DNA of 64,000 nucleotides from Gammaproteobacteria bacterium (lineage in GTDB: Bacteria > Pseudomonadota > Gammaproteobacteria > Steroidobacterales > JABDLF01). The stretch is from contig JBFGOQ010000001.1 of the NCBI GenBank assembly GCA_041565075.1, forward strand, positions 30,340-94,339, in the 5' to 3' direction. Below, in pieces: positions 1 to 46,175 of the stretch. The notes under the pieces are model-generated. The model was given only the letters and a program-made list of their open reading frames with translations. It was not told where the DNA came from and did not search any database. Numbering within the stretch: the first letter of the stretch is position 1; each line of letters opens with the position of its first letter. A program made the translations under genes and the position numbers.

Positions 1-531
1 CGTGCGGTTCCTGACCCTGGGGTTACCGGTGACTGCGCCAACCCGTGGACCGTCCATGAAATGGCGCAGCAGCCACAAGGTTGCATTGGGATGCAGCAGG
101 GCGTCGCCGTCGAGGCACACCAGGAATTCATGGCGAGCGGCGAGAGCGCCCATACGCAGTCCCATGGCTTTGCCCTGGTTGCTCTCAAAGTGGATGACGC
201 GGACGCGTGAGTCGGCCGCATGCAGCTCGTCCAGCACCCGGCCCGTCTCGTCGGTGCTGCAGTCGTTGACCGCGATTACTTCAAAAACGGGATAGTTCTG
301 GCGCAACAGTGATTCGATGGTATCGCGACAGTTTTCGCCCTCGTTATGACACGGAACGATGTATGACACACCGGGGTATTCGGTCAGTCTCGGTGCCTGT
401 TCGTAAATGCCGGTATCTTTGCGCTCCCAGTGAAAATAATAGTACAGCGCGGCAATGATCCACAGATAGCCCATGAACAACGGGTAGTAATAGGCGAAAT
501 CGAAAATTGCTGCTGTATGACCGAAATCCAT
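1..531 (-). CDS. pgaC: Poly-beta-1,6-N-acetyl-D-glucosamine synthase PgaC, N-terminal 177 codons (3' end lies beyond the window start)
   Basis: This gene is absent from the ORF track because it runs off the window. My reverse-strand translation from the ATG at 531..529 reads MDFGHTAAIFDFAYYYPLFMGYLWIIAALYYYFHWERKDTGIYEQAPRLTEYPGVSYIVPCHNEGENCRDTIESLLRQNYPVFEVIAVNDCSTDETGRVLDEL...NQGKAMGLRMGALAARHEFLVCLDGDALL...PRVGAVTGNPRVRNRT. That is a family-2 glycosyltransferase with the PgaC/IcaA layout. It starts 3 nt after the pgaB stop. Confidence 0.9.
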   Translation of the reverse strand, partial: MDFGHTAAIFDFAYYYPLFMGYLWIIAALYYYFHWERKDTGIYEQAPRLTEYPGVSYIVPCHNEGENCRDTIESLLRQNYPVFEVIAVNDCSTDETGRVLDELHAADSRVRVIHFESNQGKAMGLRMGALAARHEFLVCLDGDALLHPNATLWLLRHFMDGPRVGAVTGNPRVRNRT

Positions 532-533
532 CG

Positions 534-27310: not shown

Positions 27311-28718
27311 GACCCTGGCAATTTTACTGACGCTTATCGCTTATAAGGTCGTGCTGGTTATGATCGGTTTCTGGGCAAGTCGGCGCACGCATGACAACGC
27401 AGATTTTTTTCTGGGAGGCCGGCGCCTGGGACCGCTGGTCGCGGCCATCAGCGCATCCGCCAGCTCATCATCTGCCTGGACCTTGCTCGGTGTCAGCGGC
27501 GCTGCTTTTGCCATGGGATTGCCCGCACTTTGGCTGTTTCCTGCCACCGTATCCGGCTTTCTCATCAACTGGTTTTTTATCGCACCGCGCCTGATGCGTC
27601 AGAGTCGCGCAGACCAATCGGTGACCGTAACCGATGTGATCAGTGGCTCCAGGGCGAGCCCGCTTTACCCGCTGATCGTGCGCACCGCCAGCCTCATTAT
27701 TCTTTTTTCTTTCATATTCTATATCGCCGCCCAGTTTCAGGCGGCCGGCGATGCGTTTGCCAGCACTTTCGGTATGCCAATCGAAGCGGCTGTCCTGACG
27801 GGCGCCCTGATTATTCTGGTGTACACGCTGCTTGGTGGTTTCTGGGCGGTAAGTGTTACCGATACTCTGCAGGGTCTGCTGATGGCGCTGACCGCCGTGG
27901 TATTGCCGGTGATTGCACTGATAGCCGCCGGAGGCTTCACCGCGCTGGGCAGTGGGCTGCTGCTCGTGAGCATGCCGCACGAACTGAATGCCACTGGTAT
28001 ACATGTCGGCATCGCCGGGTTTGGTTTTGTACTTGGCACCCTCGGCATCGGGCTGGGTTACCCGGGCCAACCCCATGTGATCAATCGCTTCATGGCGCTG
28101 CGTGACGAGCAAGCCTTGCGCCGGGCGCGGCTGATTGCCGTGGCATGGGCCAGCATTGTGTACGCGGGGATGTTGTTGCTGGGTCTTTGCGCGCGCGTGC
28201 TGACCCTGGAAGCCGGCAGTTCGGGTGAACAGGTCCTGTATGCAGCGGCCAACACGCTCTTGCCGCCGGTGCTGGCGGGCATCATGATCGCGGCGGTGCT
28301 GTCGGCGATCATGTCCACGGCTGACAGCCAGTTATTGGTGGCTGCTTCGGCGGTTTCCCATGACCTGGGCAGACTCAGGCATGCAAACACCCCGAGGGTT
28401 GCCATGTCGCGCTGGGTTGTGGCGGGCGTCTGCACTTTGGCGGTGCTGCTCGCAATTTACGCGCCTGACAGGATCTTTACCCGGGTCTTGTTTGCGTGGC
28501 ACGCAGTGGGCTCGGCATTCGGACCCCTGGTTTTGATGAAGGTGCTCGGTCGTGAGGTCGACAGCAGGGCCATACTCGCCTGCCTGGTAACAGGCTTCGG
28601 TCTGACCGTCGTATTGCATGCCCAGCCCAACGCGCCCGGCGATGTGACTGAGCGTTTGCTGCCGCTGGTGCTTGGATTGCTTATCGCCTGGGCCGGTTCA
28701 CGCCGGTCACGCTCGTGA
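27303..28718 (+). CDS. Sodium:solute symporter family transporter (PutP-like)
   Basis: MDKTLAILLTLIAYKVVLVMIGFWASRRTHDNADFFLGGRRLGPLVAAISASASSSSAWTLLG matches the SSS N-terminal signature. The protein is polytopic throughout. Confidence 0.8.
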   Translation: MDKTLAILLTLIAYKVVLVMIGFWASRRTHDNADFFLGGRRLGPLVAAISASASSSSAWTLLGVSGAAFAMGLPALWLFPATVSGFLINWFFIAPRLMRQSRADQSVTVTDVISGSRASPLYPLIVRTASLIILFSFIFYIAAQFQAAGDAFASTFGMPIEAAVLTGALIILVYTLLGGFWAVSVTDTLQGLLMALTAVVLPVIALIAAGGFTALGSGLLLVSMPHELNATGIHVGIAGFGFVLGTLGIGLGYPGQPHVINRFMALRDEQALRRARLIAVAWASIVYAGMLLLGLCARVLTLEAGSSGEQVLYAAANTLLPPVLAGIMIAAVLSAIMSTADSQLLVAASAVSHDLGRLRHANTPRVAMSRWVVAGVCTLAVLLAIYAPDRIFTRVLFAWHAVGSAFGPLVLMKVLGREVDSRAILACLVTGFGLTVVLHAQPNAPGDVTERLLPLVLGLLIAWAGSRRSRS

Positions 28719-29615
28719 AGAATAGCGGTTGAAGGCAGTAATCGTGTCCATGGGCAGCTTGGGCAGGCGCCCACCAAAAACTTCCTGGCGCAGGTACGCG
28801 AGTTCAAGTTCCAGGTCAGACTCATCGACGTCGCAATACCAGGCCTTGGGGCGCCCGTCGTCGCCGGCGTTCCAGCGATAGTGGCGTACTTTCAGCTTGT
28901 CTTTGGCATCGAATGGACTGCCCTCGGCCCAGATCCGGATGGTTTTCCTGCGCGCATTGGCCAGCAATGAGGCCAGCGCCAGTCCGCCGCTTTCAGGTAA
29001 TTCCTGAGCGAGCAGATGTATGCCGGCCAGGCAGTCACCCGTGGCGCGGTGTGCGTCGTAGAAAAAACCATACCTGTAGGCAAGATATTCGAGCTTGGCG
29101 CCTTCCAGGCCCTCGTCCCGCCAGGGCACTTCCGCCATGGAGCAGCCCCAGGCCTTACTGGCGAACAGCGGGTGAATCTGTTCCGCGAAAGGACGGTCGA
29201 ATCCAGCGTTGTGCGCGACCACCAGGTGTGCCGGCGTGACGATATCTTCGATCCGCGCCGTATCAAGAGCCTTGCCCGAGACCATCTGGTCCGTAATGCC
29301 GGTGAGGCGCGTAATTTCAGGTGTGATTGGCACGCCCGGGTCACGCAGTGCGTCGTAGCCTTTATACAATCGAAAAATCCGCCCGTCCGGCGCGAAATCG
29401 AACGGCACGAGCGCCAGTTCGATAACCTGGTCGGTGGCAGAATCCAGGCCAGTGGTTTCGACATCAAGGAAAATACCACGCCGCATTTCGCCGCTTTCTT
29501 CAAGGGCAGTATCGGGTTCGTTGTAGTAAGAAATTTCCGGCAGGCGTCTGATGACACGATAGTTCTGGTCGCGTTCGAGCGTCAGCGCCAGCGTTTCGAG
29601 GTCCTGGTCGGTCAT
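28707..29615 (-). CDS. DEDDh-type 3'-5' exonuclease domain protein with a C-terminal extension
   Basis: The three exonuclease motifs are ExoI FLDVETTGLD, ExoII VVAHNAGFDRPF and ExoIII HRATGDCLA. The likely start is MTDQDLETL (29615). Confidence 0.75.
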   Translation of the reverse strand: MTDQDLETLALTLERDQNYRVIRRLPEISYYNEPDTALEESGEMRRGIFLDVETTGLDSATDQVIELALVPFDFAPDGRIFRLYKGYDALRDPGVPITPEITRLTGITDQMVSGKALDTARIEDIVTPAHLVVAHNAGFDRPFAEQIHPLFASKAWGCSMAEVPWRDEGLEGAKLEYLAYRYGFFYDAHRATGDCLAGIHLLAQELPESGGLALASLLANARRKTIRIWAEGSPFDAKDKLKVRHYRWNAGDDGRPKAWYCDVDESDLELELAYLRQEVFGGRLPKLPMDTITAFNRYSSRA

Positions 29616-29629
29616 TTTGTATGCAGATT

Positions 29630-30250
29630 TCAGATCACAAACGGGATAAACAACCAACTGCGCGCGCGATAATCGCTAAACTCCGGGTAGCGTGAAAGGG
29701 AGCGATCTTTACGCAGCATGTTGGGTACCCAGTAAGCGATTATGAAAAGGCCCAGCACGACAAAGGGCAGCCAATGCATCGCAAGTAGCGCGAACGCGAC
29801 GTATATCAGCAGCTCGCCGAGATAGTTCGGGTTGCGCGACCGGGCCCATAATCCGTCGCTGAGCAGGTGGCCCGGTCGTAATGCCAGCGACATGTGCTTT
29901 TGCATGTCGGCGCAGAAATGCAGGAATACGCCAAAGGCGAAACTGGCAACCGCCAGAGCCAGCAGCCAGCCGGGGGCCTGCACACCGTGTATAACAATGA
30001 TCCAGGGTGCGATCCAGTACAGGCTCAGGCCCAGCCAGATGATCAGCCCGCGCATGATCGAACAGTCTTTTTCCCATGACTTATCCGCAAACAGGCGACT
30101 TTTCAACACCCACATGAGGCCGTAACTGCCGTGCAAGGCCAGGTAGATCAGGGCGGTGGCGTTTTGCCAGGCGTCCTGCCAATAGATCAGAGCAACGATA
30201 AACAGACCGGTTACGCCCTTGTGGCTATCGATGAAATTTTTTTCGCGCAT
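29630..30250 (-). CDS. DUF1295 / isoprenylcysteine-carboxyl-methyltransferase-like membrane protein
   Basis: The protein is polytopic and carries the signature SRNPNYLGELLIYVAF. The likely start is MREKNFIDSHKG (30250). The track ORF's 68-aa Arg/Pro-rich leader would overlap the divergent sheath gene. Confidence 0.65.
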   Translation of the reverse strand: MREKNFIDSHKGVTGLFIVALIYWQDAWQNATALIYLALHGSYGLMWVLKSRLFADKSWEKDCSIMRGLIIWLGLSLYWIAPWIIVIHGVQAPGWLLALAVASFAFGVFLHFCADMQKHMSLALRPGHLLSDGLWARSRNPNYLGELLIYVAFALLAMHWLPFVVLGLFIIAYWVPNMLRKDRSLSRYPEFSDYRARSWLFIPFVI

Positions 30251-30372
30251 GCCAAAGCCTCCGGCCGGCTGGTTTTGGATTGTAACCGTATTTATGCCGC
30301 CCAAGGCTCGTACCGGTGGGGCTTTGGGTTTACACTGTCGGCATACGCCCCGGGGGCAAGAGCGGAGTAGCT

Positions 30373-31953
30373 GTGTCCGAGCTGGAGGATACCGGCATTT
30401 ATGTGGCGGTAGGGGCTGGTGAAGCCGAATCGATCCCGATGGCTCCCACCTCAATTACCGCATTCGTCGGTCGCGCCCGTCGCGGCCCGGTCAACTTTCC
30501 CCTGACCATCGACAGTTTCGACGAATTCGAGCGCCTTTTCGGCAGTCTGTGGATGCCGAGTACGATGAGCTATGCAGTGCGCCATTTCTTTCTGAACGGT
30601 GGCCGCCAGGCAATCATCGTGCGGGTCATCAATGGCGGCCGGCATAACACCATCCAACTGCCGGCCGGCCACGACGTACTTGTGCTCGCTGCCCGGCACC
30701 CGGGCACCGGGGAGGTGCTGCGCGCCGCAGTCGACTACGACAACATCCCGGAAAAATCCAACAGCTTTAATCTTACGATTCAACGGGTGCGCGGCGTCGG
30801 TTCCACGATTGTGGAAGACCAGGAGATTGTCAATCGTGTTTCCATGCGTGCTGAGTCGCAACGCTTCGTCACTGATGTGCTGCATGACTCCAACCTGGTC
30901 CGCGTGCGTGATGGGGTGCCGACAGCGCGGCCGGAGCCCACCGCCAATTCCGGCCATGGCGAGCAGCGTGGCTACGTGACGTCGGCCAGCGATGGTGATG
31001 ATGGCCGTCCTCTTTCCGACAATGACATTATTGGTTCGGAGCGCGAGCAAACCGGGCTGCATGCTCTGAAGACGGGGCCACGCTTCAATCTCCTGTGCAT
31101 TCCGCCGCTGTCACGAAACCATGACCTGGGATTCGCGGCCATGCGCTTCGCGGCCGAATTCTGCCGCCGCAACAAGGCCCTGTATGTGGCTGATCCGCCG
31201 TCGATCTGGCGCTCGCCGGATGACGCCATAGCCGGTTTGAGCGATCTGGGTCTCAGCAATGAGAACGCGGCACTGTTCTACCCACGGCTTATCATGGACG
31301 ACGAGGCCCAGGGTGGCCGCTCGGAGTTTGCCCCCTGTGGCACGGTTGCGGGCCTGCTGGCGCGCTGCGACGAAAATGCCGGGCCCTGGGAAAGCCCTGG
31401 CTTGAGCCATGCACCGCTGCGTGGCGTGCGTAGATTTGCGGATGAAGTCGATGACTACGAATGCGAGAGCCTGATAGCGAGCGGGATCAATTGCCTGCGC
31501 GCCCATGGGCGCAGCATCCGGGTGCTGGAGGGCGATCGCACCCTGGGCGGTGCCGATTGCCCGGCGCCGGAATGGCGCAGTCTTTCTAAGCGGCGTTTTG
31601 CAATGATGGTCATCGACAGCGTGCGGGAAGGCACCGGATGGGCAGCATTTGAAAAGAACGATTCCGAATTGTGGTACCGGCTGCAGGGCAAGGTCGAAGA
31701 ATTTCTCATGCGCTGCCATGCACTGGGTGCCTTTGGCAACCTCAAACAAAGCCAGGCATGGTTTGTGAAGTGTGACCGCGAGACCACCACCGAGGAGGAC
31801 CGCCGCAAAGGTCGTGTCAACGTGGTGGTGGGTCTGGCGCAAGATCGGCCGTCGGATTTTCTGGTGATTAATATCAGTCAGCCGGTGCAGCCATTGACAG
31901 ACGAGGATGCGTTCGCCGAAGCCAGCCTGGCCAGTTATGATGCGCTCGCCTGA
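30373..31953 (+). CDS. Contractile-tail sheath family protein (phage / eCIS sheath homologue), orphan
   Basis: The N-terminus reads TGIYVAVGAGEAESIPMAPTSITAFVGRARRGPVNFPLTIDSFDEFERLFG. The mid-region reads FNLLCIP...ALYVADPP...AALFYPRL. The C-terminus reads GINCLRAHGRSIRVLEGDRTLGG...WRSLSKRRFAMMVIDSVREGTGWAAFEKNDSELWYRLQGKVEEFL...AWFVKCDRETTTEED..GRVNVVVGLAQDRPSDFLVINISQ. Together these are the canonical sheath signature blocks. A GTG start at 30373 follows GGAG (30364..30367). Confidence 0.8.
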   Translation: MSELEDTGIYVAVGAGEAESIPMAPTSITAFVGRARRGPVNFPLTIDSFDEFERLFGSLWMPSTMSYAVRHFFLNGGRQAIIVRVINGGRHNTIQLPAGHDVLVLAARHPGTGEVLRAAVDYDNIPEKSNSFNLTIQRVRGVGSTIVEDQEIVNRVSMRAESQRFVTDVLHDSNLVRVRDGVPTARPEPTANSGHGEQRGYVTSASDGDDGRPLSDNDIIGSEREQTGLHALKTGPRFNLLCIPPLSRNHDLGFAAMRFAAEFCRRNKALYVADPPSIWRSPDDAIAGLSDLGLSNENAALFYPRLIMDDEAQGGRSEFAPCGTVAGLLARCDENAGPWESPGLSHAPLRGVRRFADEVDDYECESLIASGINCLRAHGRSIRVLEGDRTLGGADCPAPEWRSLSKRRFAMMVIDSVREGTGWAAFEKNDSELWYRLQGKVEEFLMRCHALGAFGNLKQSQAWFVKCDRETTTEEDRRKGRVNVVVGLAQDRPSDFLVINISQPVQPLTDEDAFAEASLASYDALA

Positions 31954-31971
31954 GTAAATTACCAGTACCCC

Positions 31972-32727
31972 ATGTCCGACGAACCTCTGATCGCAGTATT
32001 TATAGACTTCGAAAATCTCGCGCTTGGCGCGCGCGATATGAAGGAAGACAAGTTTCGCATTGATTTAGTGCTGAAGAGGCTGCTCGAGAAAGGGCGGCTG
32101 GTTTACAAGCGGGCGTATTGTGATTGGAGCAACTATCGTACTGCCGTGCGTGAGTTTCACCGTAACGGCATAGAGATGATTGATATCCCACAAACCAAAT
32201 TGAGTGGCAAGAACAGCGCGGACATCCGCATGGTGGTGGATGCGCTGGACCTGTGTTACGCAAAGGATCACATCGATATTTTTGCGCTGGTCTCGGGCGA
32301 CAGTGATTTTTCCCCGCTGGTATCCAAGCTCAAGGAAAATGACAAGCGCGTCATTGGCTGTGGCGTCAAGAGTTCCACTTCGGATCTGCTGATCGCCAAC
32401 TGCGATGAATTCATCTATTACGATGACCTGATCAGGAAAGCACGCAAGAAATCGCCCTCGCGCAGAAAGCAAGGCCGTAAGAAAACCAAGAAAGACGAAG
32501 CGCTGGAAATGCTGCTGGGCATCGTTAACTCGCTTGATTCCGACTACGATCCGGTGTGGGGTTCGCTGGTCAAGCAGACTTTGCGCCGGGTTTATCCGGG
32601 GTTTGACGAGACCTATTATGGCTACCGGAATTTTTCGGACATGCTTGAAGATGCCTCTGGCAAGAAACTGCTTGAACTGGAATATGACGAGCAGCGCGGC
32701 AATTACAAGGTTCGTACGGGTCTCTGA
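31972..32727 (+). CDS. NYN (LabA/PIN-like) ribonuclease domain protein with a C-terminal OST-HTH/LOTUS domain
   Basis: The NYN blocks are IAVFIDFENL, YCDWSN, GKNSADIRMVVDAL and FALVSGDSDFSPLVSKLKE. A Lys/Arg-rich linker follows. The C-terminal LOTUS-like segment reads VWGSLVKQTLRRVYPGFDETYYGYRNFSDMLED. Confidence 0.8.
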   Translation: MSDEPLIAVFIDFENLALGARDMKEDKFRIDLVLKRLLEKGRLVYKRAYCDWSNYRTAVREFHRNGIEMIDIPQTKLSGKNSADIRMVVDALDLCYAKDHIDIFALVSGDSDFSPLVSKLKENDKRVIGCGVKSSTSDLLIANCDEFIYYDDLIRKARKKSPSRRKQGRKKTKKDEALEMLLGIVNSLDSDYDPVWGSLVKQTLRRVYPGFDETYYGYRNFSDMLEDASGKKLLELEYDEQRGNYKVRTGL

Positions 32728-32738
32728 GGGCGGCAGCA

Positions 32739-33044
32739 TTGACCGGCGACTTCTCGAGTTTCAAGGATTTTTATCCCTTTTACCTGGCTGAGCACAGCAA
32801 CGTGAATTGCCGGCGCATGCATTTCGTCGGCACCCTGCTGGTGATTGTCACGACAATCATTGCCGTGTTCACCGGACGCTGGCGGCTGTTGTGGCTGTTG
32901 CCGGTGCTCGGTTACGGATTTGCCTGGCTGGGCCACGGCGTTTTCGAAAAAAACCGGCCGGCTACCTTTACCCATCCCCTGTACAGCTTGCTCGGAGATT
33001 TCGTCATGTTCGGCCAGATGCTGACCGGCCGCCTGCGATTCTAG
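32739..33044 (+). CDS. DUF962 (Mpo1-like) small membrane protein
   Basis: FKDFYPFYLAEHSNVNCRRMHFVGT...GYGFAWLGHGVFEKNRPATF matches the DUF962 signature. Confidence 0.75.
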   Translation: MTGDFSSFKDFYPFYLAEHSNVNCRRMHFVGTLLVIVTTIIAVFTGRWRLLWLLPVLGYGFAWLGHGVFEKNRPATFTHPLYSLLGDFVMFGQMLTGRLRF

Positions 33045-33066
33045 GCCTGTCCAGCAGCGCCGGCCG

Positions 33067-33095
33067 TGAAATCGGCTGATTTCATGGCGTATACT
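33067..33095 (+). promoter_or_regulatory. Palindrome TGAAATC-GGCT-GATTTCA followed by the TATACT -10-like hexamer (33090..33095), upstream of the acyl-CoA reductase gene
   Basis: Seven-bp perfect inverted arms were read directly. The position overlaps the expected -35/spacer of the only -10-like hexamer in this 119-bp gap. Confidence 0.35.
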
Positions 33096-33163
33096 GACAC
33101 GATCCCGTGATCAACTGCCGGCGCGCCAGCGATCGGCCAAAACAAGTAACTGGGAATCTGAGC

Positions 33164-35149
33164 ATGAACTATTTCGTAACCGGCGGCACCGGGTTTATCG
33201 GCAAGCGACTCGTTGCCAAGCTGCTTGAGCGCGGCGGCACTGTGTACCTGCTTGCCAGGAAGGGCAGCGCTGGTCGCGTCGCAGCACTGCGCGACCAATT
33301 GGCAGTCGATGCCAAGCGATTAATTTTGGTAAACGGCGATCTGACGGCCGAAAACCTCGGCATCGGTGCCAAGACCAGAAATGAACTGCAGGGAAAAATT
33401 GATCACTTTTTTCATCTGGCTGCCATCTATGACCTGACCGCGAGTGCTGCGATCCAGGAGCAGGTCAACGTCGCCGGGACTCGCGCGGTTATGCAGTTTG
33501 CAGAACAGATCGAGGCCGGCACATTTCACATGGTCAGTTCGATCGCAGCAGCGGGAACATACAACGGCGTCTTTCGCGAGGATATGTTCGAAGAAGCGGA
33601 GGGCCTGCAGCACCCGTATTTCCGCACCAAACACGAGTCCGAGGCACTGATCAGGAAGGAATACCCGAGGCCCTGGCGGATTTATCGGCCTGGCGTTGTG
33701 GTCGGGGATTCCGAGACCGGCGAAATGGACAAGATCGACGGTCCCTATCACTTCTTCAAAGCAATCCAGAAAATTCGCCGCACTTTGCCGCGCTGGATGC
33801 CCACCATTGGTGTGGAAGGCGGGCGGATAAACATCGTCCCGGTAAATTATGTCGTTGCGGCGATGGATCATATAGCCCACAAGAAAGGTCTTGACGGCAA
33901 ATGTTTTCATCTCACGGACCCGCAAGCGCGCCGCATCGGTGACGTGCTGAATATTTTTGCGCGCGCGGCGCATGCCCCGGAAATGGCCATGCGGGTCAAT
34001 GCGCGCATGTTCGGGTTCATCCCAAGTTATGTCTGGAAAGGGGTCGCCTCCATCGCTCCGGTGCGGCGCATGATCAGTTCCGTGCTGGAGGACCTGCGCC
34101 TGCCCCCCGACATGCTGGGGTTTATAAATTATCCCACGCGTTTCGATAGCCGCGAGGCAGAAAAAGCGCTGGCGGACAGTGACATTCGGGTGCCTGATCT
34201 CAGGGAATATGCGTGGAAGCTCTGGGATTACTGGGAGCGGCATATGGACCCGGATCTGTTTGTCGATCGCTCGTTAGGTGGCCGGGTAGGCGGCAAAGTT
34301 GCCTTGGTTACCGGCGCCTCTTCGGGCATCGGGCAGGCGACCGCGATTCGGCTGGGCGAAGCCGGTGCCAGGGTAGTCATCGTGGCACGCGGCGAAGAAA
34401 AGCTGGCAGAGACCGCCGAGATTATCCGTCAAGGCGGGGGTGAAGTCAGCACCTATACGGCGGATCTTTCAGATGCCGATTCCTGTGACCGGCTGGTCAA
34501 AGCTGTACTGAAGGATCATGAGTGCGTGGACATCCTGGTCAATAATGCAGGGCGCTCGATCCGCCGTGGCATTGAACAGTCTTTCGACCGGTTCCATGAC
34601 TTCGAGCGCACCATGCAGCTCAATTATTATGGTGCACTTCGTCTGATTCTCGGGTTTTTGCCGGCGATGGCCAAGCGGCGCAATGGGCACATAATCAACA
34701 TTTCTTCAATCGGGGTGCTCAGCAATGCGCCGCGTTTCTCCGCTTACGTTGCGTCCAAGGCGGCGCTGGATGCGTTTACACGCTGTGCAGGATCCGAGTT
34801 TTCGGATCGCAACGTGCGTTTTACAACCATCAATATGCCCCTGGTGCGAACGCCAATGATCGCTCCGACCAAGCTGTATGAGAACGTGCCAACCATCAGC
34901 CCTGAAGAAGCCGCGGATATGGTCGCGGATGCGATAATCCGTCGCCCGATACGCATCGCAACGCGTTTGGGCGTGACCGCGCAGATCCTGCACTTGCTTG
35001 CCCCAAAAATGACGGAGGTGGGTATGAACACTGCGTTTCAAATGTTCCCGGACTCGGCGGCCGCCAAGGGCAAGAAGGGTGAGGGTGAGCATCAGCCGTC
35101 GCCGGAACAAATCGCGCTGGCCCAGTTCACCAAGGGCATCCACTGGTAG
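33164..35149 (+). CDS. Two-domain fatty acyl-CoA / fatty aldehyde reductase (NAD_binding_4 reductase domain plus SDR domain)
   Basis: From MNYFVTGGTGFIGKRL the protein is 661 aa. It has the N-terminal Rossmann motif GGTGFIG. The C-terminal SDR domain has VTGASSGIGQATA and YVASKAAL (YxxxK). The architecture matches the 661-aa Marinobacter-type fatty alcohol-forming reductases. Confidence 0.75.
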   Translation: MNYFVTGGTGFIGKRLVAKLLERGGTVYLLARKGSAGRVAALRDQLAVDAKRLILVNGDLTAENLGIGAKTRNELQGKIDHFFHLAAIYDLTASAAIQEQVNVAGTRAVMQFAEQIEAGTFHMVSSIAAAGTYNGVFREDMFEEAEGLQHPYFRTKHESEALIRKEYPRPWRIYRPGVVVGDSETGEMDKIDGPYHFFKAIQKIRRTLPRWMPTIGVEGGRINIVPVNYVVAAMDHIAHKKGLDGKCFHLTDPQARRIGDVLNIFARAAHAPEMAMRVNARMFGFIPSYVWKGVASIAPVRRMISSVLEDLRLPPDMLGFINYPTRFDSREAEKALADSDIRVPDLREYAWKLWDYWERHMDPDLFVDRSLGGRVGGKVALVTGASSGIGQATAIRLGEAGARVVIVARGEEKLAETAEIIRQGGGEVSTYTADLSDADSCDRLVKAVLKDHECVDILVNNAGRSIRRGIEQSFDRFHDFERTMQLNYYGALRLILGFLPAMAKRRNGHIINISSIGVLSNAPRFSAYVASKAALDAFTRCAGSEFSDRNVRFTTINMPLVRTPMIAPTKLYENVPTISPEEAADMVADAIIRRPIRIATRLGVTAQILHLLAPKMTEVGMNTAFQMFPDSAAAKGKKGEGEHQPSPEQIALAQFTKGIHW

Positions 35150-35164
35150 ACGACAGTTAAGCAG

Positions 35165-35509
35165 GTGACTGTTCGCGCGGAACATACGGCCGCCATCAGG
35201 GAGGCCGTAGCCTCCATACCTCGCGGCAAAGTATGCTCCTATGGGAGAGTGGCCGAAGTTGCGGGGCTGCCGCGCCGGGCCCGGCTGGTCGGGCGCGTTC
35301 TGGGGGAGATGTCAGCGGCAGAGGAATTGCCCTGGCACAGGGTTATCAGGGCGAATGGCACGCTGGCCTTCGAACCGGGCAGCAGAGGCTATGAAAAGCA
35401 GTCGTCGAGGTTGATAGCCGAAGGTGTCGCTGTCGAGGAAGGGCGCGTAGACCTGGCTCGCTTCGGCTGGCAGCTGAGCCTGGACGAACAGCTTTGGGGG
35501 CCCTCCTGA
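35165..35509 (+). CDS. Alkyltransferase-like (ATL / YbaZ-type) DNA-binding protein, MGMT fold without the acceptor cysteine
   Basis: IPRGKVCSYGRVAEVAGLP...LPWHRVIRANG. Here PWHRV stands in place of the PCHRV active site of O6-alkylguanine transferases. Confidence 0.75.
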   Translation: MTVRAEHTAAIREAVASIPRGKVCSYGRVAEVAGLPRRARLVGRVLGEMSAAEELPWHRVIRANGTLAFEPGSRGYEKQSSRLIAEGVAVEEGRVDLARFGWQLSLDEQLWGPS

Positions 35510-35510
35510 A

Positions 35511-37964
35511 ATGAACCGTTATCTCGGTTTCGATCGCCTTGGCCTGGGCCTTGCACGCCGCCTTCTCAACCTCTGGGTCCGCACCCGCGTGCTGCCTGAA
35601 GATCTCGGGACGCTGAAGGTGAACGCAGATATTCCGGTCTGCTATGTGCTGGAGATGCGCGCCTTGTCTGACTTGCTGGTGCTGGACCGGGAGACGCGCA
35701 AGGCCGGGATGCCGCGGCCAAATGATGCGCTGGTCATGGGTCCCATGCGTTCCAGACGGTCCGTGTTTGCCACTGCCCGCATGCGCGGCTGGATGCCAAA
35801 GCGGGTCGAGCAGCAGGTACCAGAGCTGTTACATGATATCGCCGGGGCCGTTCTTGATGACGCAACGCTGGATGTGCAACTTGTGCCCGTGGCGATTTTC
35901 TGGGGCCGTGCTCCGGAAAAAGAAACTTCTATTTTCAAGGCCTTATTTGCCGAACGCTGGCAGCCCAAGGGCCGACTCAGAAAGTTACTGACAATCCTGT
36001 TGCATGGGCGCGCTGTGCTGGTGCAGGTGGGCACGCCGTTGTCAGTGAAGGCCAACCTTGAAGACGGCATGAAAAAGAAGACTGCCGCACGCAAACTTGC
36101 ACGTTTGCTAAGGGTTCATTTCAAGGGCATCAGGACGTCGACGATCGGGCCCGATTTATCCCACCGCAATACCCTGGTCGAGCAAATTCTGGTGGCGCCG
36201 ACGGTGCAGCAGCAGATCGAGCGGGAAGCGCGTGCTGCCCAGGTGGACGAGCACGAGGTGGTGCAGCGCGCCCGGCGTTATGCGCTGGAAATTGCCGCTG
36301 ATTATTCCCCCGGTTTCGTGAGCTTTGCCGAACGCGTGCTCGCGTGGCTGTGGAACAGGCTGTATGACGGCATTGCCGTACACCAGATTGAGGAAGTGCT
36401 CAGTCTTTCACGTACGCATACGATTGTTTATGCGCCTTGTCATCGCAGCCACATCGATTACCTTTTGCTGTCTTATGTGGTGTACCAGCATGGATTGGTG
36501 CCACCACATATCGCGGCCGGGCTTAATCTGAACCTGCCGGTTCTAGGCGGCGTGCTCAGACGCGGCGGCGCCTTCTTTTTGCGCCGGAGCTTTCGCGGCA
36601 ACAAGCTATATGCGGCAGTTTTCAACGAATACCTGCGGGCTAATCTGGCAAAGGGCGTCTCTATAGAATACTTCGTCGAAGGTGGCCGCTCGCGAACCGG
36701 CAAATTATTACGGCCCAAGCCGGGCATGTTGTCGATGACAATGCGCAGTTTTGTCGACAATCCGGACCGACCGCTCGCTTTCGTGCCGGTGTACATCGGC
36801 TATGACAAGCTGGTCGAGGGCCGCAGCTATATCGGCGAGTTGAGCGGTCGCCCGAAGCGCAAGGAAAACTGGCTGGACTTCCTGCGCTCACTGAAGATCC
36901 TGAAGAGCGAGTTTGGCACGGTGCAACTGGCGTTCGGTGAGCCTGTCGAGGCGGCGCCGTTGCTGGATGCGCGAGCGCCGGGCTGGCGGGAATCCGACAA
37001 GGCCGAAGAGAAGCCTGAATGGTTTGCCGATGTGGTGGCAGAGCTCGGCGAGGAAATTATGGTGCGTATCAACCAGGCTGCGGTCATCAATTCGGTAAAT
37101 CTGCTGGCGCTTGCCTTGCTTGCAGTACCCCGTCAGGCGATGGCGGAGAATGATCTTATCAGGCAGGTAGAAATGACCCAGGCCCTGGTGGCAGCTATTC
37201 GGGCTTCGAAGCTGGATGCGCATCAACCCATTGCCGGGAGTGAGGTCATCGCCGAGGGCGAAGATCTCGCCATGCTGGTGCGGCGACAACACGAGCTCGG
37301 TGATGTCCTCGTGTTGAGTGAAGAGCAGGCCGTGCTGTCCACCTATTTCCGCAACAATATTCTGCATCTCGTGGCGTTGCCCTCGCTCATCGCATGCGGC
37401 TTTCTTTACAACGAGTATCTTGCAAAAGACAGGCTGATTGAACTGTGCAAAATGGCCTATCCGTTCATACGCTCGGAGCTTTTTCTGCCGTCAGATGACA
37501 GAAGGATGGAGGTGCAGCTGGAACTCAGCCTGGAGGCGATGCAGGATCTCGGGTTGCTGGCCAAGTATAAAGACCGCGTCGTACGACCGCCCGCGACCTC
37601 AAGGGAGGCAGGGCAGTTATCGGTTCTGGCCCAACCCATGCTGCAGATCCTGGAGCGTTATTACCTGGTCATCGCCTTGCTGCGCAACCGCGGTTCCGGC
37701 ACCTTGACGCAAAAAGACCTCGAGTCGCTCTGCCAGCTCATGGCACAGCGCATCTCCATGATCTATGAACTTGATGCGCCGGACTTTTTTGCCCGCGATC
37801 TTTTCCGGAATTTCATTAACGAACTCAAGCGCTTCGAGGTAATCAAACTCGATGCGGACGGCAAGCTGGAATTCGGCGATATCCTGGTAGCCGTCAGTGA
37901 CAAAGCGCAGCATGTGCTCAGCGAAGAAATCCGCCACAGCATCCTGCGTGTGACTCAGGCCTGA
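35511..37964 (+). CDS. plsB: Glycerol-3-phosphate acyltransferase PlsB
   Basis: The ORF is 817 aa. It has the HX4D block PCHRSHIDYLLLSYV and the downstream blocks FFLRRSF and YFVEGGRSRTGK. Confidence 0.92.
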   Translation: MNRYLGFDRLGLGLARRLLNLWVRTRVLPEDLGTLKVNADIPVCYVLEMRALSDLLVLDRETRKAGMPRPNDALVMGPMRSRRSVFATARMRGWMPKRVEQQVPELLHDIAGAVLDDATLDVQLVPVAIFWGRAPEKETSIFKALFAERWQPKGRLRKLLTILLHGRAVLVQVGTPLSVKANLEDGMKKKTAARKLARLLRVHFKGIRTSTIGPDLSHRNTLVEQILVAPTVQQQIEREARAAQVDEHEVVQRARRYALEIAADYSPGFVSFAERVLAWLWNRLYDGIAVHQIEEVLSLSRTHTIVYAPCHRSHIDYLLLSYVVYQHGLVPPHIAAGLNLNLPVLGGVLRRGGAFFLRRSFRGNKLYAAVFNEYLRANLAKGVSIEYFVEGGRSRTGKLLRPKPGMLSMTMRSFVDNPDRPLAFVPVYIGYDKLVEGRSYIGELSGRPKRKENWLDFLRSLKILKSEFGTVQLAFGEPVEAAPLLDARAPGWRESDKAEEKPEWFADVVAELGEEIMVRINQAAVINSVNLLALALLAVPRQAMAENDLIRQVEMTQALVAAIRASKLDAHQPIAGSEVIAEGEDLAMLVRRQHELGDVLVLSEEQAVLSTYFRNNILHLVALPSLIACGFLYNEYLAKDRLIELCKMAYPFIRSELFLPSDDRRMEVQLELSLEAMQDLGLLAKYKDRVVRPPATSREAGQLSVLAQPMLQILERYYLVIALLRNRGSGTLTQKDLESLCQLMAQRISMIYELDAPDFFARDLFRNFINELKRFEVIKLDADGKLEFGDILVAVSDKAQHVLSEEIRHSILRVTQA

Positions 37965-44277: not shown

Positions 44278-44303
44278 CCGCTACGAGATTGGCTGTGGTG
44301 AGA

Positions 44304-44846
44304 ATGCGATTGTTGCTTGGCCTGGGTGTGGTCACCTTATGCGCGGGCTGCGCAAGCAGTGCGCCGGTCATTGCCCAGGCACCGGTGCCGTCGGCGCCCG
44401 CCACAGCCTGTCAGGCCGATGAATTCCGCCATTTTGATTTCTGGATTGGCGACTGGGACGTTATGGTCGCCGACGGCAAGAAGGCCGGCGATAATTCTAT
44501 CAAGCCGATTCATGGTGGTTGCGCTCTGCAAGAAAGCTATCAGTCAGCGGGCGGTTACCGCGGACAGAGTTTCAATATTTATGACGCGACGCGCCAGGTA
44601 TGGCATCAAACCTGGGTTGATAATACCGGGCTGTTGTTGACGATCGAGGGTGGTTTGCGAGACGGCAGCATGGTGATGACTGGCACGCGTGCCCGGCAGA
44701 CGCCCCAGGGCGAGGTGCTTGACCGCATCAGTTGGACGCCTAATGAAGATGGAACAGTGCGGCAAGTCTGGGAAGTCTCCGCGGATGAGGGCGGCAGCTG
44801 GCGGGTAATATTCGACGGCACCTACCGTCGCAAGACCGCCTCCTAG
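44304..44846 (+). CDS. Hypothetical lipoprotein
   Basis: MRLLLGLGVVTLCAGC has a lipobox. The mature part (FDFWIGDWDV...) is globular. No family was assigned. Confidence 0.6.
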   Translation: MRLLLGLGVVTLCAGCASSAPVIAQAPVPSAPATACQADEFRHFDFWIGDWDVMVADGKKAGDNSIKPIHGGCALQESYQSAGGYRGQSFNIYDATRQVWHQTWVDNTGLLLTIEGGLRDGSMVMTGTRARQTPQGEVLDRISWTPNEDGTVRQVWEVSADEGGSWRVIFDGTYRRKTAS

Positions 44847-44851
44847 AAAAA

Positions 44852-46144
44852 TCAGGCTTCGAGTGCTTGCTCCCGGGCGATCGCCCGGTGACCGATATCC
44901 CGGCGCAGGAAACAACCCTCCCAGCTGATTTGCGCTGCGGCATCGTAGGCAATGTCTGCTGCCCGGGCGACACTTTCGGCCAGCGCGGTCACGCATAAAA
45001 CACGACCGCCACTGGTCACTACCTTGCCATCTCTGCTGGTAGTTCCGGCATGGAACACCTTCAGATTTTCACGCTCCGCGGGCAAGCCGCGGATCGCGTG
45101 GCCTTTTGAGTAACTCCCGGGATATCCGCCGGCCGCCATCACGACGCCCAGCGCTGCCCGGGAATCCCATGCCACTTGCTGTCGATCCAGCTTGCCTGCC
45201 AGCGCGGCCAGGCACAGTTCGCTCAGCGGGCTCTTAAGGCGCATTATCACCGGTTGGGTCTCGGGGTCACCGAAGCGGCAATTAAATTCCAGTACCTTGA
45301 TACTGCCGTCTCCCGCCACCATCAGCCCGGCATACAGAAAGCCGACGTAGGGTGTACCCTCCCGGGCCAGACCACGCACCGTCGGGATCATGATCTCAGT
45401 CATGATGCGCGTATGGACCTCCGGGGTAACCACCGGCGCCGGCGAATAAGCACCCATGCCCCCGGTATTCGGGCCCCTGTCGCTTTCGTCGCGCGCCTTG
45501 TGGTCCTGAGAGCTCGCCAGCGGCAAGATATGCTTGCCGTCGACCATGGCGATAAAACTCGCTTCCTCGCCGACCAGAAAATCTTCGACCACGATTTGCT
45601 TGCCCGCATCACCAAACCGGTTCTCGCCAAGCATGCTTCGGGCAGCGGCGCAGGCTTGCGCCGTGCTGTCGGCGATAATCACACCTTTGCCTGCCGCCAG
45701 GCCGTCCGCTTTGACCACCAGCGGGGCGCCGCGCTCGTTGATCCAGCGCTCTGCAGCATCGATGTCGGTAAATTTCCGATAGTCGGCAGTAGCAATATCG
45801 TGGCGCGCAAGAAAGTCCTTGGTAAAGGCCTTGGAACCTTCGAGTTGTGCCGCGGCCGCTGACGGACCGAAACAGGGCAGCCCGGCTTCGCCAAACCGGT
45901 CACAGATGCCTGTTACAAGCGGTGCCTCGGGCCCGACGATAGTCAGGTCGAGATTTTCTGTGCGCGCAAATTTGACCAGCGCCGCTATATCCTCTGCCGC
46001 TATGTCGAGGTTGCTGACACCAGGTTCGGCCGCGGTGCCCGCGTTTCCAGGCGCAACAAATACAGCGTCAACGCGGTCTTCCCGGCTGAGGTGCCAGGCC
46101 AGAGCATGTTCACGACCCCCGCTGCCAACAACAAGTACCCGCAT
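44852..46144 (-). CDS. purD: Phosphoribosylamine--glycine ligase PurD
   Basis: From [19 protein letters not shown] the protein is 430 aa with an ATP-grasp layout. Confidence 0.93.
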
Positions 46145-46175
46145 TCCTGTACCTCTCAGGCCTGGGCCAGACTGG

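What the first reader, a model, noticed from the sequence alone, without database searches (positions are those of the whole stretch)
30373..32727. Orphan contractile-tail sheath homologue paired with an NYN-LOTUS nuclease-like gene, with no other tail genes
The 526-aa product has all the sheath signature blocks I know: the N-terminal TSITAFVG..RGP...F..FG, the central ALYVADPP and AALFYPRL blocks, and the C-terminal GINCLR...GDRTLGG...ELWYRL...FVKCDRETTT...FLVINISQ. No tube, baseplate, spike, tape-measure, terminase, integrase or T6SS/eCIS genes lie within at least 25 kb on either side. Its neighbours are housekeeping-like membrane and lipid enzymes. The next gene, 18 nt downstream on the same strand, encodes a NYN (PIN-like RNase) plus OST-HTH/LOTUS protein. 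A sheath protein maintained without its machine has two possible explanations. It could be a decaying remnant, though the ORF is intact and full length. Alternatively it has been exapted, for example as a scaffold, sensor or decoy coupled to an RNase effector, which would resemble an anti-phage module.
Basis: partly seen in the sequence, partly recalled or inferred. Interest (0 to 1): 0.65.

Follow-up and report, generated by a model that had tools for sequence, protein, structure and literature searches.

The report
Solitary domesticated tail-sheath gene
A full-length relative of the contractile-tail sheath protein sits alone among housekeeping genes and has been inherited vertically, without the rest of the injection machine, across a large group of soil Gammaproteobacteria; the RNase-like gene next to it is an unrelated, widespread neighbour.

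Summary
Window 30373-31953 (+) encodes an intact 526-aa sheath homologue. Its closest solved relatives are the cytoplasmic contractile injection system (CIS) sheaths of Halogeometricum and Streptomyces. An NYN+LOTUS gene follows 18 nt downstream, and the 64-kb window holds no other tail gene.

The sheath gene is neither a remnant nor half of a module. It belongs to a monophyletic, tube-less clade ('O') of sheath paralogues. This clade sits at one conserved chromosomal site, near oxoprolinase, an MGMT-like gene and plsB, in Steroidobacteraceae-like Gammaproteobacteria. I examined 138 such loci, and none has a tube or any other CIS gene within 10 kb. Canonical relatives recovered in the same scans always have a tube gene 30-100 nt downstream.

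dN/dS is 0.05-0.08. The conservation pattern is inverted compared with canonical sheaths: the N- and C-terminal arms and the inner domain are relaxed, and the outer domain is tightened.

NYN-LOTUS is adjacent only in the window's closest relatives. In a 48%-identity relative an opposite-strand gene separates the two, and in the rest of the clade NYN is absent from the locus. NYN-LOTUS also occurs, 72-78% identical, in unrelated contexts and phyla.

Best reading: a domesticated, stand-alone sheath derivative. What it does is unknown and was not tested here.

The parts
30373..31953 (+). Solitary sheath-family gene, 526 aa, with a GTG start. It is a member of the tube-less 'O' clade of CIS-sheath paralogues.
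   Evidence: Searches give homology and fold. One search confirms the start codon. One search shows purifying selection. Searches give clade membership and the shifted conservation pattern.
30251..30372 (.). Divergent intergenic region between the DUF1295 gene (-) and the sheath gene (+). Blocks conserved in five orthologous loci are GATTGTAAC, CTCGTACC, GCTTTGGGTTTAAACTG, a short GCCCC..GGGGC hairpin and the CGGAG ribosome-binding site. It is a probable promoter and leader region, but I could not assign the blocks to either gene.
   Evidence: alignment A4. The simple sigma-70 scan found nothing in this region.
31972..32727 (+). NYN (PIN-like nuclease fold) plus OST-HTH/LOTUS gene, 251 aa, 18 nt downstream on the same strand. 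It is probably co-transcribed with the sheath gene in this lineage, but it is a widespread stand-alone gene and not a conserved partner of the sheath.
   Evidence: One search gives the domains. One search shows more than 8000 homologues at 72-78% identity across phyla. Searches show other contexts. Searches show the adjacency is not conserved. One search found no terminator-like site in the 18-nt gap.
32739..33044 (+). Mpo1-like (DUF962) gene, 11 nt after NYN. It travels with NYN in all relatives of this lineage and is listed only as context.
29630..30250 (-). DUF1295 / steroid-reductase-like membrane protein, transcribed divergently from the sheath gene. Context only.

Best explanation
The gene encodes a domesticated, stand-alone derivative of a CIS sheath protein. 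One ancestral sheath gene of the Streptomyces/haloarchaeal-type CIS lineage was captured into the chromosome of an ancestor of the Steroidobacteraceae-like Gammaproteobacteria. It lost its tube, baseplate and other partners, and has since been inherited vertically at the same site, near oxoprolinase, an MGMT-like gene and plsB.

Shown here:
- The full sheath fold is retained.
- The tube-less clade is monophyletic.
- Synteny is conserved.
- Purifying selection is strong.
- No CIS gene lies within 10 kb in any of 138 loci.
- Selective constraint has moved away from the elements that build and drive a contractile lattice (N-arm, C-terminal strands, inner C-terminal domain) and onto the outer insertion domain.

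Inferred mechanism: the protein no longer works as a contractile spring on a tube. It most likely still self-associates through its retained N- and C-terminal exchange arms. The N-arm's length is conserved even where its motif has decayed. The product would be a static, tube-less oligomer or polysheath-like assembly in the cytoplasm, and its conserved outer domain would present a new binding surface for an unknown cellular partner.

The NYN-LOTUS gene downstream is an independent, widely distributed RNA-binding and nuclease-like gene. It happens to be the next gene in this lineage. At most it shares a transcript with the sheath gene; it is not part of the same system.

The confidence given (0.55) is for the whole statement including the inferred self-assembly. 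For the shown part alone (solitary, vertically inherited, selected sheath derivative unrelated to NYN) I would put it at about 0.85.
For: Homology and fold.

Clade:
- A library-wide phmmer search found 1864 clusters at E<=1e-30.
- An NJ tree of the 150 listed hits plus earlier family members splits into 55 O-type and 107 canonical sequences.
- O, including the window protein, is monophyletic in 60/60 outgroup-rooted bootstraps.

Solitary state:
- 80 species-level genomes carry the gene with PlsB, MGMT-like and oxoprolinase genes nearby and no tube.
- A second sublineage on a 3.59-Mb contig, a third sublineage in metagenomes and the 48%-identity relative show the same.
- Canonical relatives in the same scans all carry a tube 30-100 nt downstream.
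- ORFs from five complete canonical loci, used as queries against 2.0 Mb of O loci plus the window, matched only through the sheath.
- The downstream gene is convergent in 60 of 76 loci, so there is no conserved operon partner.

Selection: dN/dS 0.05-0.08.

Shift in constraint:
- O/C conservation ratios are 0.45 for the N-arm, 0.40 for the C-terminal strands and 0.5-0.6 for residues 301-480. They are 1.47 for residues 91-160 and 1.15 for 201-300.
- The canonical motifs PGVY[IV]EE, GVWKAPAG, KYxPVRR and GFAPLKPAEF are eroded.
- Arm length is kept: the AFxGR anchor lies at residues 27-35 in 48 of 54 O sequences.
- O proteins have a fixed size of 489-579 aa, against 485-914 aa for canonical ones, and carry a C-terminal extension of about 16 aa.

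Independence of NYN.
Against: - No whole genome could be searched, so a sheath-less CIS cluster elsewhere in these genomes is not excluded.
- Self-assembly is inferred from sequence only. The relaxed arms and the loss of the N-arm motif in some sublineages could equally mean that oligomerisation has been lost and the protein acts as a monomer.
- The AlphaFold2 monomer model gives no information on the arms (pLDDT below 50 for residues 1-18 and 519-526).
- dS is saturated (1.4-3.4), so the dN/dS values are approximate.
- The O and C groups differ in overall divergence (mean identity 0.39 against 0.50), so only the relative pattern of conservation is meaningful.
- Trees are neighbour-joining on identity distances, not maximum likelihood.
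- All carriers are metagenome-assembled genomes, and there are no expression or phenotype data.
Confidence: 0.55

Rival explanations
1. Trans-acting component: the protein is the working sheath of a CIS whose tube, baseplate, spike and cap genes lie elsewhere in the genome.
For: The fold is complete, both arms are present, and the closest solved relatives are working CIS sheaths. The window protein keeps more canonical C-terminal motifs (NCLR, GDRTL, FVKCDRETTT) than other O members. Whole genomes could not be searched.
Against: - In every canonical relative seen here the tube gene follows the sheath within 30-100 nt. In 138 O loci nothing CIS-like lies within 10 kb.
- The gene sits at a fixed housekeeping site across deep lineages.
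- The parts of a sheath that contact neighbouring subunits and the tube are the least conserved parts in clade O. In canonical sheaths they are the most conserved. A working sheath should show the canonical pattern.
Confidence: 0.1
2. Anti-phage module: the sheath homologue senses or mimics phage tail proteins and activates the adjacent NYN RNase.
For: The two genes are 18 nt apart on one strand with no terminator-like site between them. NYN has a weak hit to a PADLOC NYN model (25.9 bits). The adjacency is kept in the five closest genomes.
Against: - The adjacency is kept only where the whole region is collinear. It is broken by an opposite-strand gene at 48% sheath identity and absent in all other O loci.
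- NYN-LOTUS is widespread on its own.
- The sheath has no PADLOC hit.
- Vertical inheritance, core-gene surroundings and low dN/dS are unlike defence islands.
- The closest phage sheath is only 27.7% identical.
Confidence: 0.04
3. Non-assembling neofunctionalised protein: the sheath fold is kept as a monomeric or small-oligomer scaffold. The conserved outer domain (VDYD, FNLxxQRxR, EDQE, DGxxLTDYDxIGS motifs) performs a new binding or enzymatic function, and the arms are vestigial.
For: The arms and inner domain are relaxed and the outer domain is tightened. The N-arm motif is lost in several sublineages. Size and domain composition are fixed.
Against: N-arm length is maintained in 48 of 54 O sequences even where the motif has decayed. 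About two-thirds of lineages still show a G-[IVL]-x-[VL]-x-[ED]-like motif when read by eye; the strict pattern matched 21 of 55, at the canonical spacing of 23 residues to the AFxGR anchor in the 17 where both elements were found. No catalytic family matches the protein in Pfam or NCBIfam.
Confidence: 0.3
4. Decaying prophage or eCIS remnant with no function.
For: It is the only tail-like gene in 64 kb.
Against: The ORFs are intact and full length in all relatives. dN/dS is 0.05-0.08. Fifty-eight columns are invariant across 43 family members. The clade is monophyletic with conserved synteny. There are no flanking repeats, tRNA genes or integrase remnants.
Confidence: 0.01

Closest known systems
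Sheath proteins of cytoplasmic CIS: Halogeometricum borinquense (PDB 9EZM) and Streptomyces coelicolor (PDB 8BKY, 8BL4, 9GTP)
   Same: These are the best sequence and structure matches: E=1e-43 and 6e-40, full-length alignment, Foldseek E=4e-36 with TM 0.65/0.69. Size is similar (about 530-570 aa), and the proteins share the N-terminal arm, the AFxGR strand and the C-terminal strands.
   Different: Those proteins are encoded next to tube and baseplate genes and form contractile sheaths. The window protein is encoded alone, its PGVYVEE arm motif has degenerated to TGIYVAV, and it carries a C-terminal extension of about 20 aa. Its clade shows relaxed constraint on the lattice-forming parts.
Canonical sheath-plus-tube loci of uncultured bacteria (L096, L198, L204, L213, L214 and others)
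   Same: These are the nearest canonical relatives, 38-41% identical over the full length and the sister group of the O clade.
   Different: They always have a tube gene 30-100 nt downstream followed by further conserved CIS genes. Their N- and C-terminal arms are near-invariant (YPGVYIEE......GFAPLKPAEFVVIKLQQIAGQ) and they carry insertion domains of variable size.
eCIS sheaths Afp2-4 and Pvc2-4, AlgoCIS and tCIS sheaths, R-pyocin sheath, T4 gp18
   Same: Same superfamily and core fold.
   Different: More distant: E=1e-23 to 1e-3, matching the C-terminal half only. All of them are part of complete machines.
Tube-less polysheaths (T4 gp18 polysheath; TssB/C tubules formed without Hcp). From my own knowledge, not tested here.
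   Same: They are a precedent that sheath proteins can polymerise without a tube into a contracted-like lattice. This is the assembly mode proposed here.
   Different: Those are aberrant or in-vitro products of proteins whose biological role needs the tube. Here the tube-less state would be the selected, native state.
Bacterial NYN + OST-HTH/LOTUS proteins (LabA-like / TIGR00288-related; same domain pair as eukaryotic MARF1)
   Same: The downstream gene has this exact architecture. It keeps the acidic NYN motifs FIDFEN, D84/D90 and SGDSDF, read by eye from the translation.
   Different: No link to sheath genes exists in the wider family. It scores far below the cut-off of TIGR00288 (36.9 against 178 bits).

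Membership tests
Contractile-tail / CIS sheath superfamily (Pfam Phage_sheath_1 + Phage_sheath_1C) | Sequence match to sheath profiles | tested here: met
   PF04984 scores 32.6 bits against a 31.4-bit cut-off. PF17482 scores 17.9 bits, below its 26.9-bit cut-off. phrog_23 scores 119.5 bits over residues 6-499. PDB sheaths match at E=1e-43 and E=6e-40.
Contractile-tail / CIS sheath superfamily | Sheath fold: conserved inner domains plus an inserted outer domain | tested here: met
   The AlphaFold2 model has pLDDT 83.7. All 50 listed Foldseek PDB hits are sheath chains, with 9ezm_A best at TM 0.65/0.69.
Contractile-tail / CIS sheath superfamily | N- and C-terminal exchange arms ('handshake' strands) with conserved motifs | tested here: inconclusive
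   Arms of canonical length are present. The PGVY[IV]EE motif has become TGIYVAV here and is degenerate or lost across clade O. The C-terminal strands are conserved at 0.40 of the canonical level.
Functional contractile injection system (phage tail, tailocin, eCIS, cytoplasmic CIS, T6SS) | Sheath gene encoded with tube, baseplate, spike and cap genes | tested here: not met
   None is present in the 64-kb window or within 10 kb of 138 O-clade loci. Canonical relatives in the same scans all have the tube gene. The rest of the genome could not be searched.
Functional contractile injection system | Polymerisation on a tube, followed by contraction | not testable with these tools
   This needs electron microscopy or biochemistry, or at least multimer structure prediction.
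Anti-phage defence system (sheath + NYN effector) | Gene pair conserved as a unit across lineages | tested here: not met
   The pair is adjacent only in collinear near relatives, split by another gene at 48% sheath identity, and NYN is absent from the locus elsewhere in the clade.
Anti-phage defence system (sheath + NYN effector) | Match to known defence families, or location in a defence island | tested here: not met
   PADLOC gives nothing for the sheath and 25.9 bits to a generic NYN model. The neighbours are core metabolic and envelope genes.
NYN-LOTUS proteins (downstream gene) | NYN domain followed by an OST-HTH/LOTUS domain | tested here: met
   PF01936 scores 127.3 bits over residues 7-150. 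PF12872 scores 25.8 bits over residues 184-238.

The most novel reading that the evidence does not exclude
Clade O is a previously unrecognised class of bacterial cytoplasmic polymer. A sheath protein freed from its tube and baseplate assembles on its own into a static, or perhaps still switchable, tubule or ring. This assembly would serve a housekeeping role, such as a scaffold, compartment or mechanical element, in Steroidobacteraceae-like soil Gammaproteobacteria, with the conserved outer domain recruiting cellular partners.
Probability: 0.25. Interest if true: 0.85.

Novelty: new variant of a known kind. Interest (0 to 1): 0.62.

Why it matters
Every sheath protein studied so far works inside a complete contractile machine: a phage tail, a tailocin, an eCIS or cytoplasmic CIS, or a T6SS. 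This one belongs to a sheath lineage that has been kept for a long evolutionary time as a single gene, at a fixed housekeeping locus and under strong purifying selection. Its lattice-forming parts have relaxed and its outer domain has tightened. That makes it a clear case of a single phage structural protein being domesticated, comparable in kind to encapsulins derived from capsid proteins.

It raises a testable question: what can a sheath do without a tube?

It also matters for annotation. 'Phage tail sheath family protein' calls in these genomes do not indicate a prophage, tailocin or CIS, and metagenomic counts of 'CIS genes' in soils rich in Steroidobacteraceae could be inflated by this family.

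I found no description of such solitary sheaths in the searchable literature.

Tried and rejected
- Defence-system scan: PADLOC gave nothing for the sheath.
- NCBIfam gave no family for the sheath.
- The promoter and terminator consensus scan of 29500-35600 gave counts at the level of shuffled sequence and nothing in the sheath upstream region.
- Repeat search around the gene found only chance-level short repeats and no att-like pairs.
- tRNA and Rfam scans found nothing.
- Seven literature searches and three paper look-ups for orphan, solitary or exapted sheaths, Steroidobacter plus CIS, and sheath plus NYN/LOTUS found nothing relevant. The one Steroidobacter/CIS paper only lists both terms separately.
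- The Foldseek afdb50 library was unavailable.
It was repeated with five closer sequences.
- Midpoint rooting suggested that O might be paraphyletic. Outgroup rooting with distant eCIS sheaths resolved it as monophyletic in 60/60 replicates.
- I tried reading the conserved upstream blocks as sigma-54, sigma-32 or sigma-E promoters by eye. None fits convincingly, so no claim is made.
- I considered horizontal acquisition of NYN because total GC dips at 32-34 kb. GC3 of NYN (0.63) is in the genome's range, and the dip lies in codon positions 1 and 2, so it reflects amino-acid composition.
Full report
**1. What is at the coordinates**

The + strand ORF 30373-31953 starts at GTG, preceded by GGAG, and encodes 526 aa. 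Two results support the start. The orthologue in locus L093 has ATG at the same codon. The N-terminus MSELEDTGIYV aligns from residue 1 with MSEYQSPGVYV of a solved sheath.

The protein is a sheath homologue by every test:
- Pfam Phage_sheath_1 at 32.6 bits, barely above the cut-off. The C-terminal model scores below its cut-off.
- PHROG 'tail sheath' phrog_23 at 119.5 bits over residues 6-499.
- phmmer against PDB sequences gives E=1e-43 to the Halogeometricum borinquense CIS sheath (9EZM). It gives E=6e-40 over residues 7-503 to the Streptomyces coelicolor CIS sheath (8BKY). AlgoCIS, tCIS, PVC and AFP sheaths follow, and T4 gp18 matches only weakly.
- An AlphaFold2 model built on 43 family members has pLDDT 83.7 and pTM 0.78. 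Only the two termini are of low confidence. All 50 listed Foldseek PDB hits are sheath chains.
- The nearest sheath in 50,697 phage records is only 27.7% identical.

The next gene, 31972-32727, lies 18 nt downstream and has NYN (127 bits) and OST-HTH/LOTUS (25.8 bits) domains.

**2. The surroundings**

The rest of the window is housekeeping. It contains a pgaABC-like locus, GGDEF/EAL proteins, LipA, OmpA, PpnN, Crp, a PALP enzyme, oxoprolinase, an SSF transporter, a 3'-5' exonuclease and a DUF1295 protein. It also contains an Mpo1-like gene, a FAR-like two-domain reductase, an MGMT-like gene, PlsB, a rhodanese, a HAD hydrolase, a DEAD-box helicase, thioredoxin and Rho. Further on come PurH, Fis, Dus, AccBC, AroQ, DsbD, CutA, GroES/EL, GlnE and LPS glycosyltransferases.

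There is no tRNA, no Rfam hit and no att-like repeat.

**3. It is one member of a large, tube-less clade**

A search of 5.8 billion proteins gave more than 3000 hits. Orthologues at 76-86% identity lie in collinear loci. A large set of proteins of about 540 aa, at 41-47% identity, is labelled Steroidobacteraceae or uncultured Gammaproteobacteria.

The best 80 loci were fetched with 10-kb flanks. In these loci PlsB, the MGMT-like gene and oxoprolinase recur downstream of the sheath gene. The gene immediately downstream is on the opposite strand in 60 of 76 loci. The upstream gene is divergent in 40 of 75. There is therefore no conserved operon partner.

A library-wide phmmer search of 1.84 billion cluster representatives found 1864 clusters at E<=1e-30. 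A tree of the 150 listed hits, together with earlier family members, splits into two groups:
- 107 canonical sheaths ('C') have near-invariant termini: YPGVYIEE...TSITAF at the start and ...GFAPLKPAEFVVIKLQQIAGQ at the end. Their lengths vary from 485 to 914 aa.
- 55 'O' sequences have a degenerate N-arm, a C-terminal extension of about 16 aa and a narrow length range of 489-579 aa.

Rooted with distant eCIS sheaths, clade O including the window protein is monophyletic in 60 of 60 bootstrap replicates. The window's sublineage branches at its base.

**4. O means solitary and C means sheath plus tube**

The nearest canonical relative in viral contigs (L096, 38% identity) has a typical tube gene 22 nt after the sheath. 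That tube was used as a tblastn query. It finds tubes directly downstream of the sheath in canonical loci, but none in the window or in the O loci.

A metagenome scan seeded with a third O sublineage returned both kinds of locus. O-type loci have the convergent oxoprolinase gene right behind the sheath and no tube. Canonical loci in the same output all have a tube 30-100 nt downstream.

All ORFs of five canonical CIS loci were then used as queries against 138 O loci plus the window, 2.0 Mb in total. Matches came through the sheath gene (and its antisense-frame shadows), apart from a few unrelated flank ORFs of the canonical loci that hit one to four O loci. The tube and four further conserved CIS genes hit nothing.

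Two more O lineages checked individually show the same picture. On a 3.59-Mb contig the order is YkuD-rhomboid-sheath, with LipA, OmpA and GGDEF genes upstream as in the window. The 48%-identity relative P0241 has the same general arrangement.

The simplest history is a single ancient capture followed by vertical inheritance at one chromosomal site.

**5. It is under selection, and the selection has moved**

Against three orthologues, dN/dS of the sheath gene is 0.05-0.08. This is equal to or lower than the values for PlsB (0.07-0.11) and oxoprolinase (0.13-0.16). dS is saturated, so the ratios are approximate. Fifty-eight columns are invariant across 43 family members.

I compared per-column conservation in O and C on one alignment:

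| Region (window residues) | O/C conservation ratio |
|---|---|
| N-arm, 1-20 | 0.45 |
| 91-160 (outer/insertion domain) | 1.47 |
| 201-300 | 1.15 |
| 301-480 | 0.5-0.6 |
| Last two strands, 481-505 | 0.40 |
| Overall, 1-505 | 0.79 |

Canonical motifs such as GVWKAPAG, KYxPVRR, VFEPNDExLW and GFAPLKPAEF are eroded in O. O-specific invariant motifs appear instead: LRAxVDYD, FNLxxQR, DQE and DYDxIGS.

The N-arm keeps its length. The AFxGR anchor lies at residues 27-35 in 48 of 54 O sequences. A strict pattern for the arm motif matched 21 of 55 O sequences against 90 of 107 canonical ones. Read by eye, about two-thirds of O sequences keep a G-[IVL]-x-[VL]-x-[ED]-like motif, and several sublineages have lost it.

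My reading, which is inference: the protein no longer has to satisfy an extended state, a contracted state, a tube, a baseplate and a cap. It still uses its arms, most simply for self-association, and it has acquired a new constrained surface on the outer domain. The alternative, that it no longer assembles at all, cannot be excluded with these tools.

**6. The NYN-LOTUS neighbour**

This gene has more than 8000 homologues at E<=1e-10. Proteins 72-78% identical occur in other phyla, for example Pirellulaceae. In the unrelated genomes checked it sits next to NAD-glutamate dehydrogenase or a sigma-70 gene, with no sheath nearby.

Next to the sheath it is found only in the window's close relatives, where the entire region is collinear. 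In the 48%-identity relative an opposite-strand SBP_bac_3 gene lies between them, so they cannot be one operon there. In all other O loci examined NYN is absent within 10 kb.

NYN is itself strongly conserved, with dN/dS of 0.03-0.04. It travels with the Mpo1-like gene rather than with the sheath. PADLOC gives only a weak generic NYN hit.

The proposed sheath+RNase defence module is therefore not supported. In the window lineage the two genes may share a transcript, since the gap is 18 nt and contains no terminator-like site. That co-transcription is the only link I found.

**7. Comparison with what is known**

By fold and sequence the protein is a member of the sheath superfamily. It is closest to the sheaths of cytoplasmic CIS of Streptomyces and haloarchaea.

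It fails one defining criterion of a contractile injection system that could be tested here: it has no linked tube or baseplate genes. It should not be annotated as evidence of a prophage, tailocin or CIS.

The nearest functional analogy is the tube-less polysheath that T4 gp18 or TssB/C can form. That comparison rests on my own knowledge and is a lead, not a result.

I found no description of solitary, vertically inherited sheath paralogues in the searchable literature.

**8. Limits**

- No complete genome could be searched for a distant CIS cluster.
- All carriers are metagenome-assembled genomes.
- Trees are neighbour-joining.
- Assembly state, partners, expression and phenotype are all untested.

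**9. Verdict**

It is a new variant of a known kind. Interest is moderate to high, because it makes the question of what a sheath does without its machine experimentally approachable in a defined, widespread clade.

Noticed in passing
window 31972-32727; loci L094, L095: The 251-aa NYN-LOTUS protein is very strongly conserved. More than 8000 homologues reach E<=1e-10, and proteins 72-78% identical occur in distant phyla, for example Pirellulaceae. Each sampled copy lies in a different housekeeping context. This means either extreme constraint or frequent horizontal transfer of an uncharacterised RNA-processing gene.
   Followed up: partly
L009, L010, L023, L025, L031 and many other O loci (sheath stop codon region): In many Steroidobacteraceae-type loci the sheath-like gene and the convergent oxoprolinase (hydantoinase A/B) gene overlap by exactly 4 nt at their 3' ends. 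This tight arrangement is kept across sublineages. In the window lineage it has been broken by a rearrangement that placed oxoprolinase and SSF upstream.
   Followed up: partly
window 30251-30372: Sequence blocks conserved in five orthologous intergenic regions: GATTGTAAC, CTCGTACC, GCTTTGGGTTTAAACTG, and a GCCCC..GGGGC hairpin just before the ribosome-binding site. No sigma-70-like site was detected, and I could not assign the blocks to a known promoter type or to either of the divergent genes.
   Followed up: partly
alignment A1 columns about 530-560; P0010, P0019, P0076 and others: Main-group O proteins carry a conserved C-terminal tail motif (xAxGSRVxPVSxNR...) after the last sheath strand. 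The window's sublineage lacks it and instead has an acidic tail predicted as a helix (PVQPLTDEDAFAEASLASYDALA, low pLDDT).
   Followed up: no
L198, L204, L205, L213, L214 (metagenome contigs): These are canonical CIS loci whose sheath is 38-41% identical to the window protein and whose tube is 73-87% identical to the L096 tube. They appear to be the closest surviving complete systems to the ancestor of the solitary clade. L214 lies on a 739-kb contig.
   Followed up: partly
window 1-5008: A pgaC (partial), pgaB (deacetylase + GHL13) and pgaA (TPR + beta-barrel) locus for poly-beta-1,6-N-acetylglucosamine export. It is followed by several GGDEF/EAL signalling genes at 5.1-18.4 kb.
   Followed up: no
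window 28707-29615 (-): A PRK09182-type DEDDh 3'-5' exonuclease (383 bits) two genes upstream of the sheath gene also hits PADLOC 'DEDDh, Cas-associated' and PDC-S48 models. It is conserved in the collinear relatives and in L140. I read this as generic domain similarity rather than defence.
   Followed up: no
window 33164-35149: A fused NAD_binding_4 (fatty acyl-CoA reductase-like) plus SDR protein, NCBIfam PRK07201 at 973 bits. It is present between the Mpo1-like and MGMT-like genes in most of the window's close relatives (fragmentary in L008) and absent from L140 and from the other O loci.
   Followed up: no
window 44289-44846 (+) and 45176-46175: A 185-aa ORF with a signal-peptide-like N-terminus has no Pfam or PHROG family. 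It is followed by about 1 kb with no convincing gene, where the only ORF (45176-45862) has no family hit.
   Followed up: no
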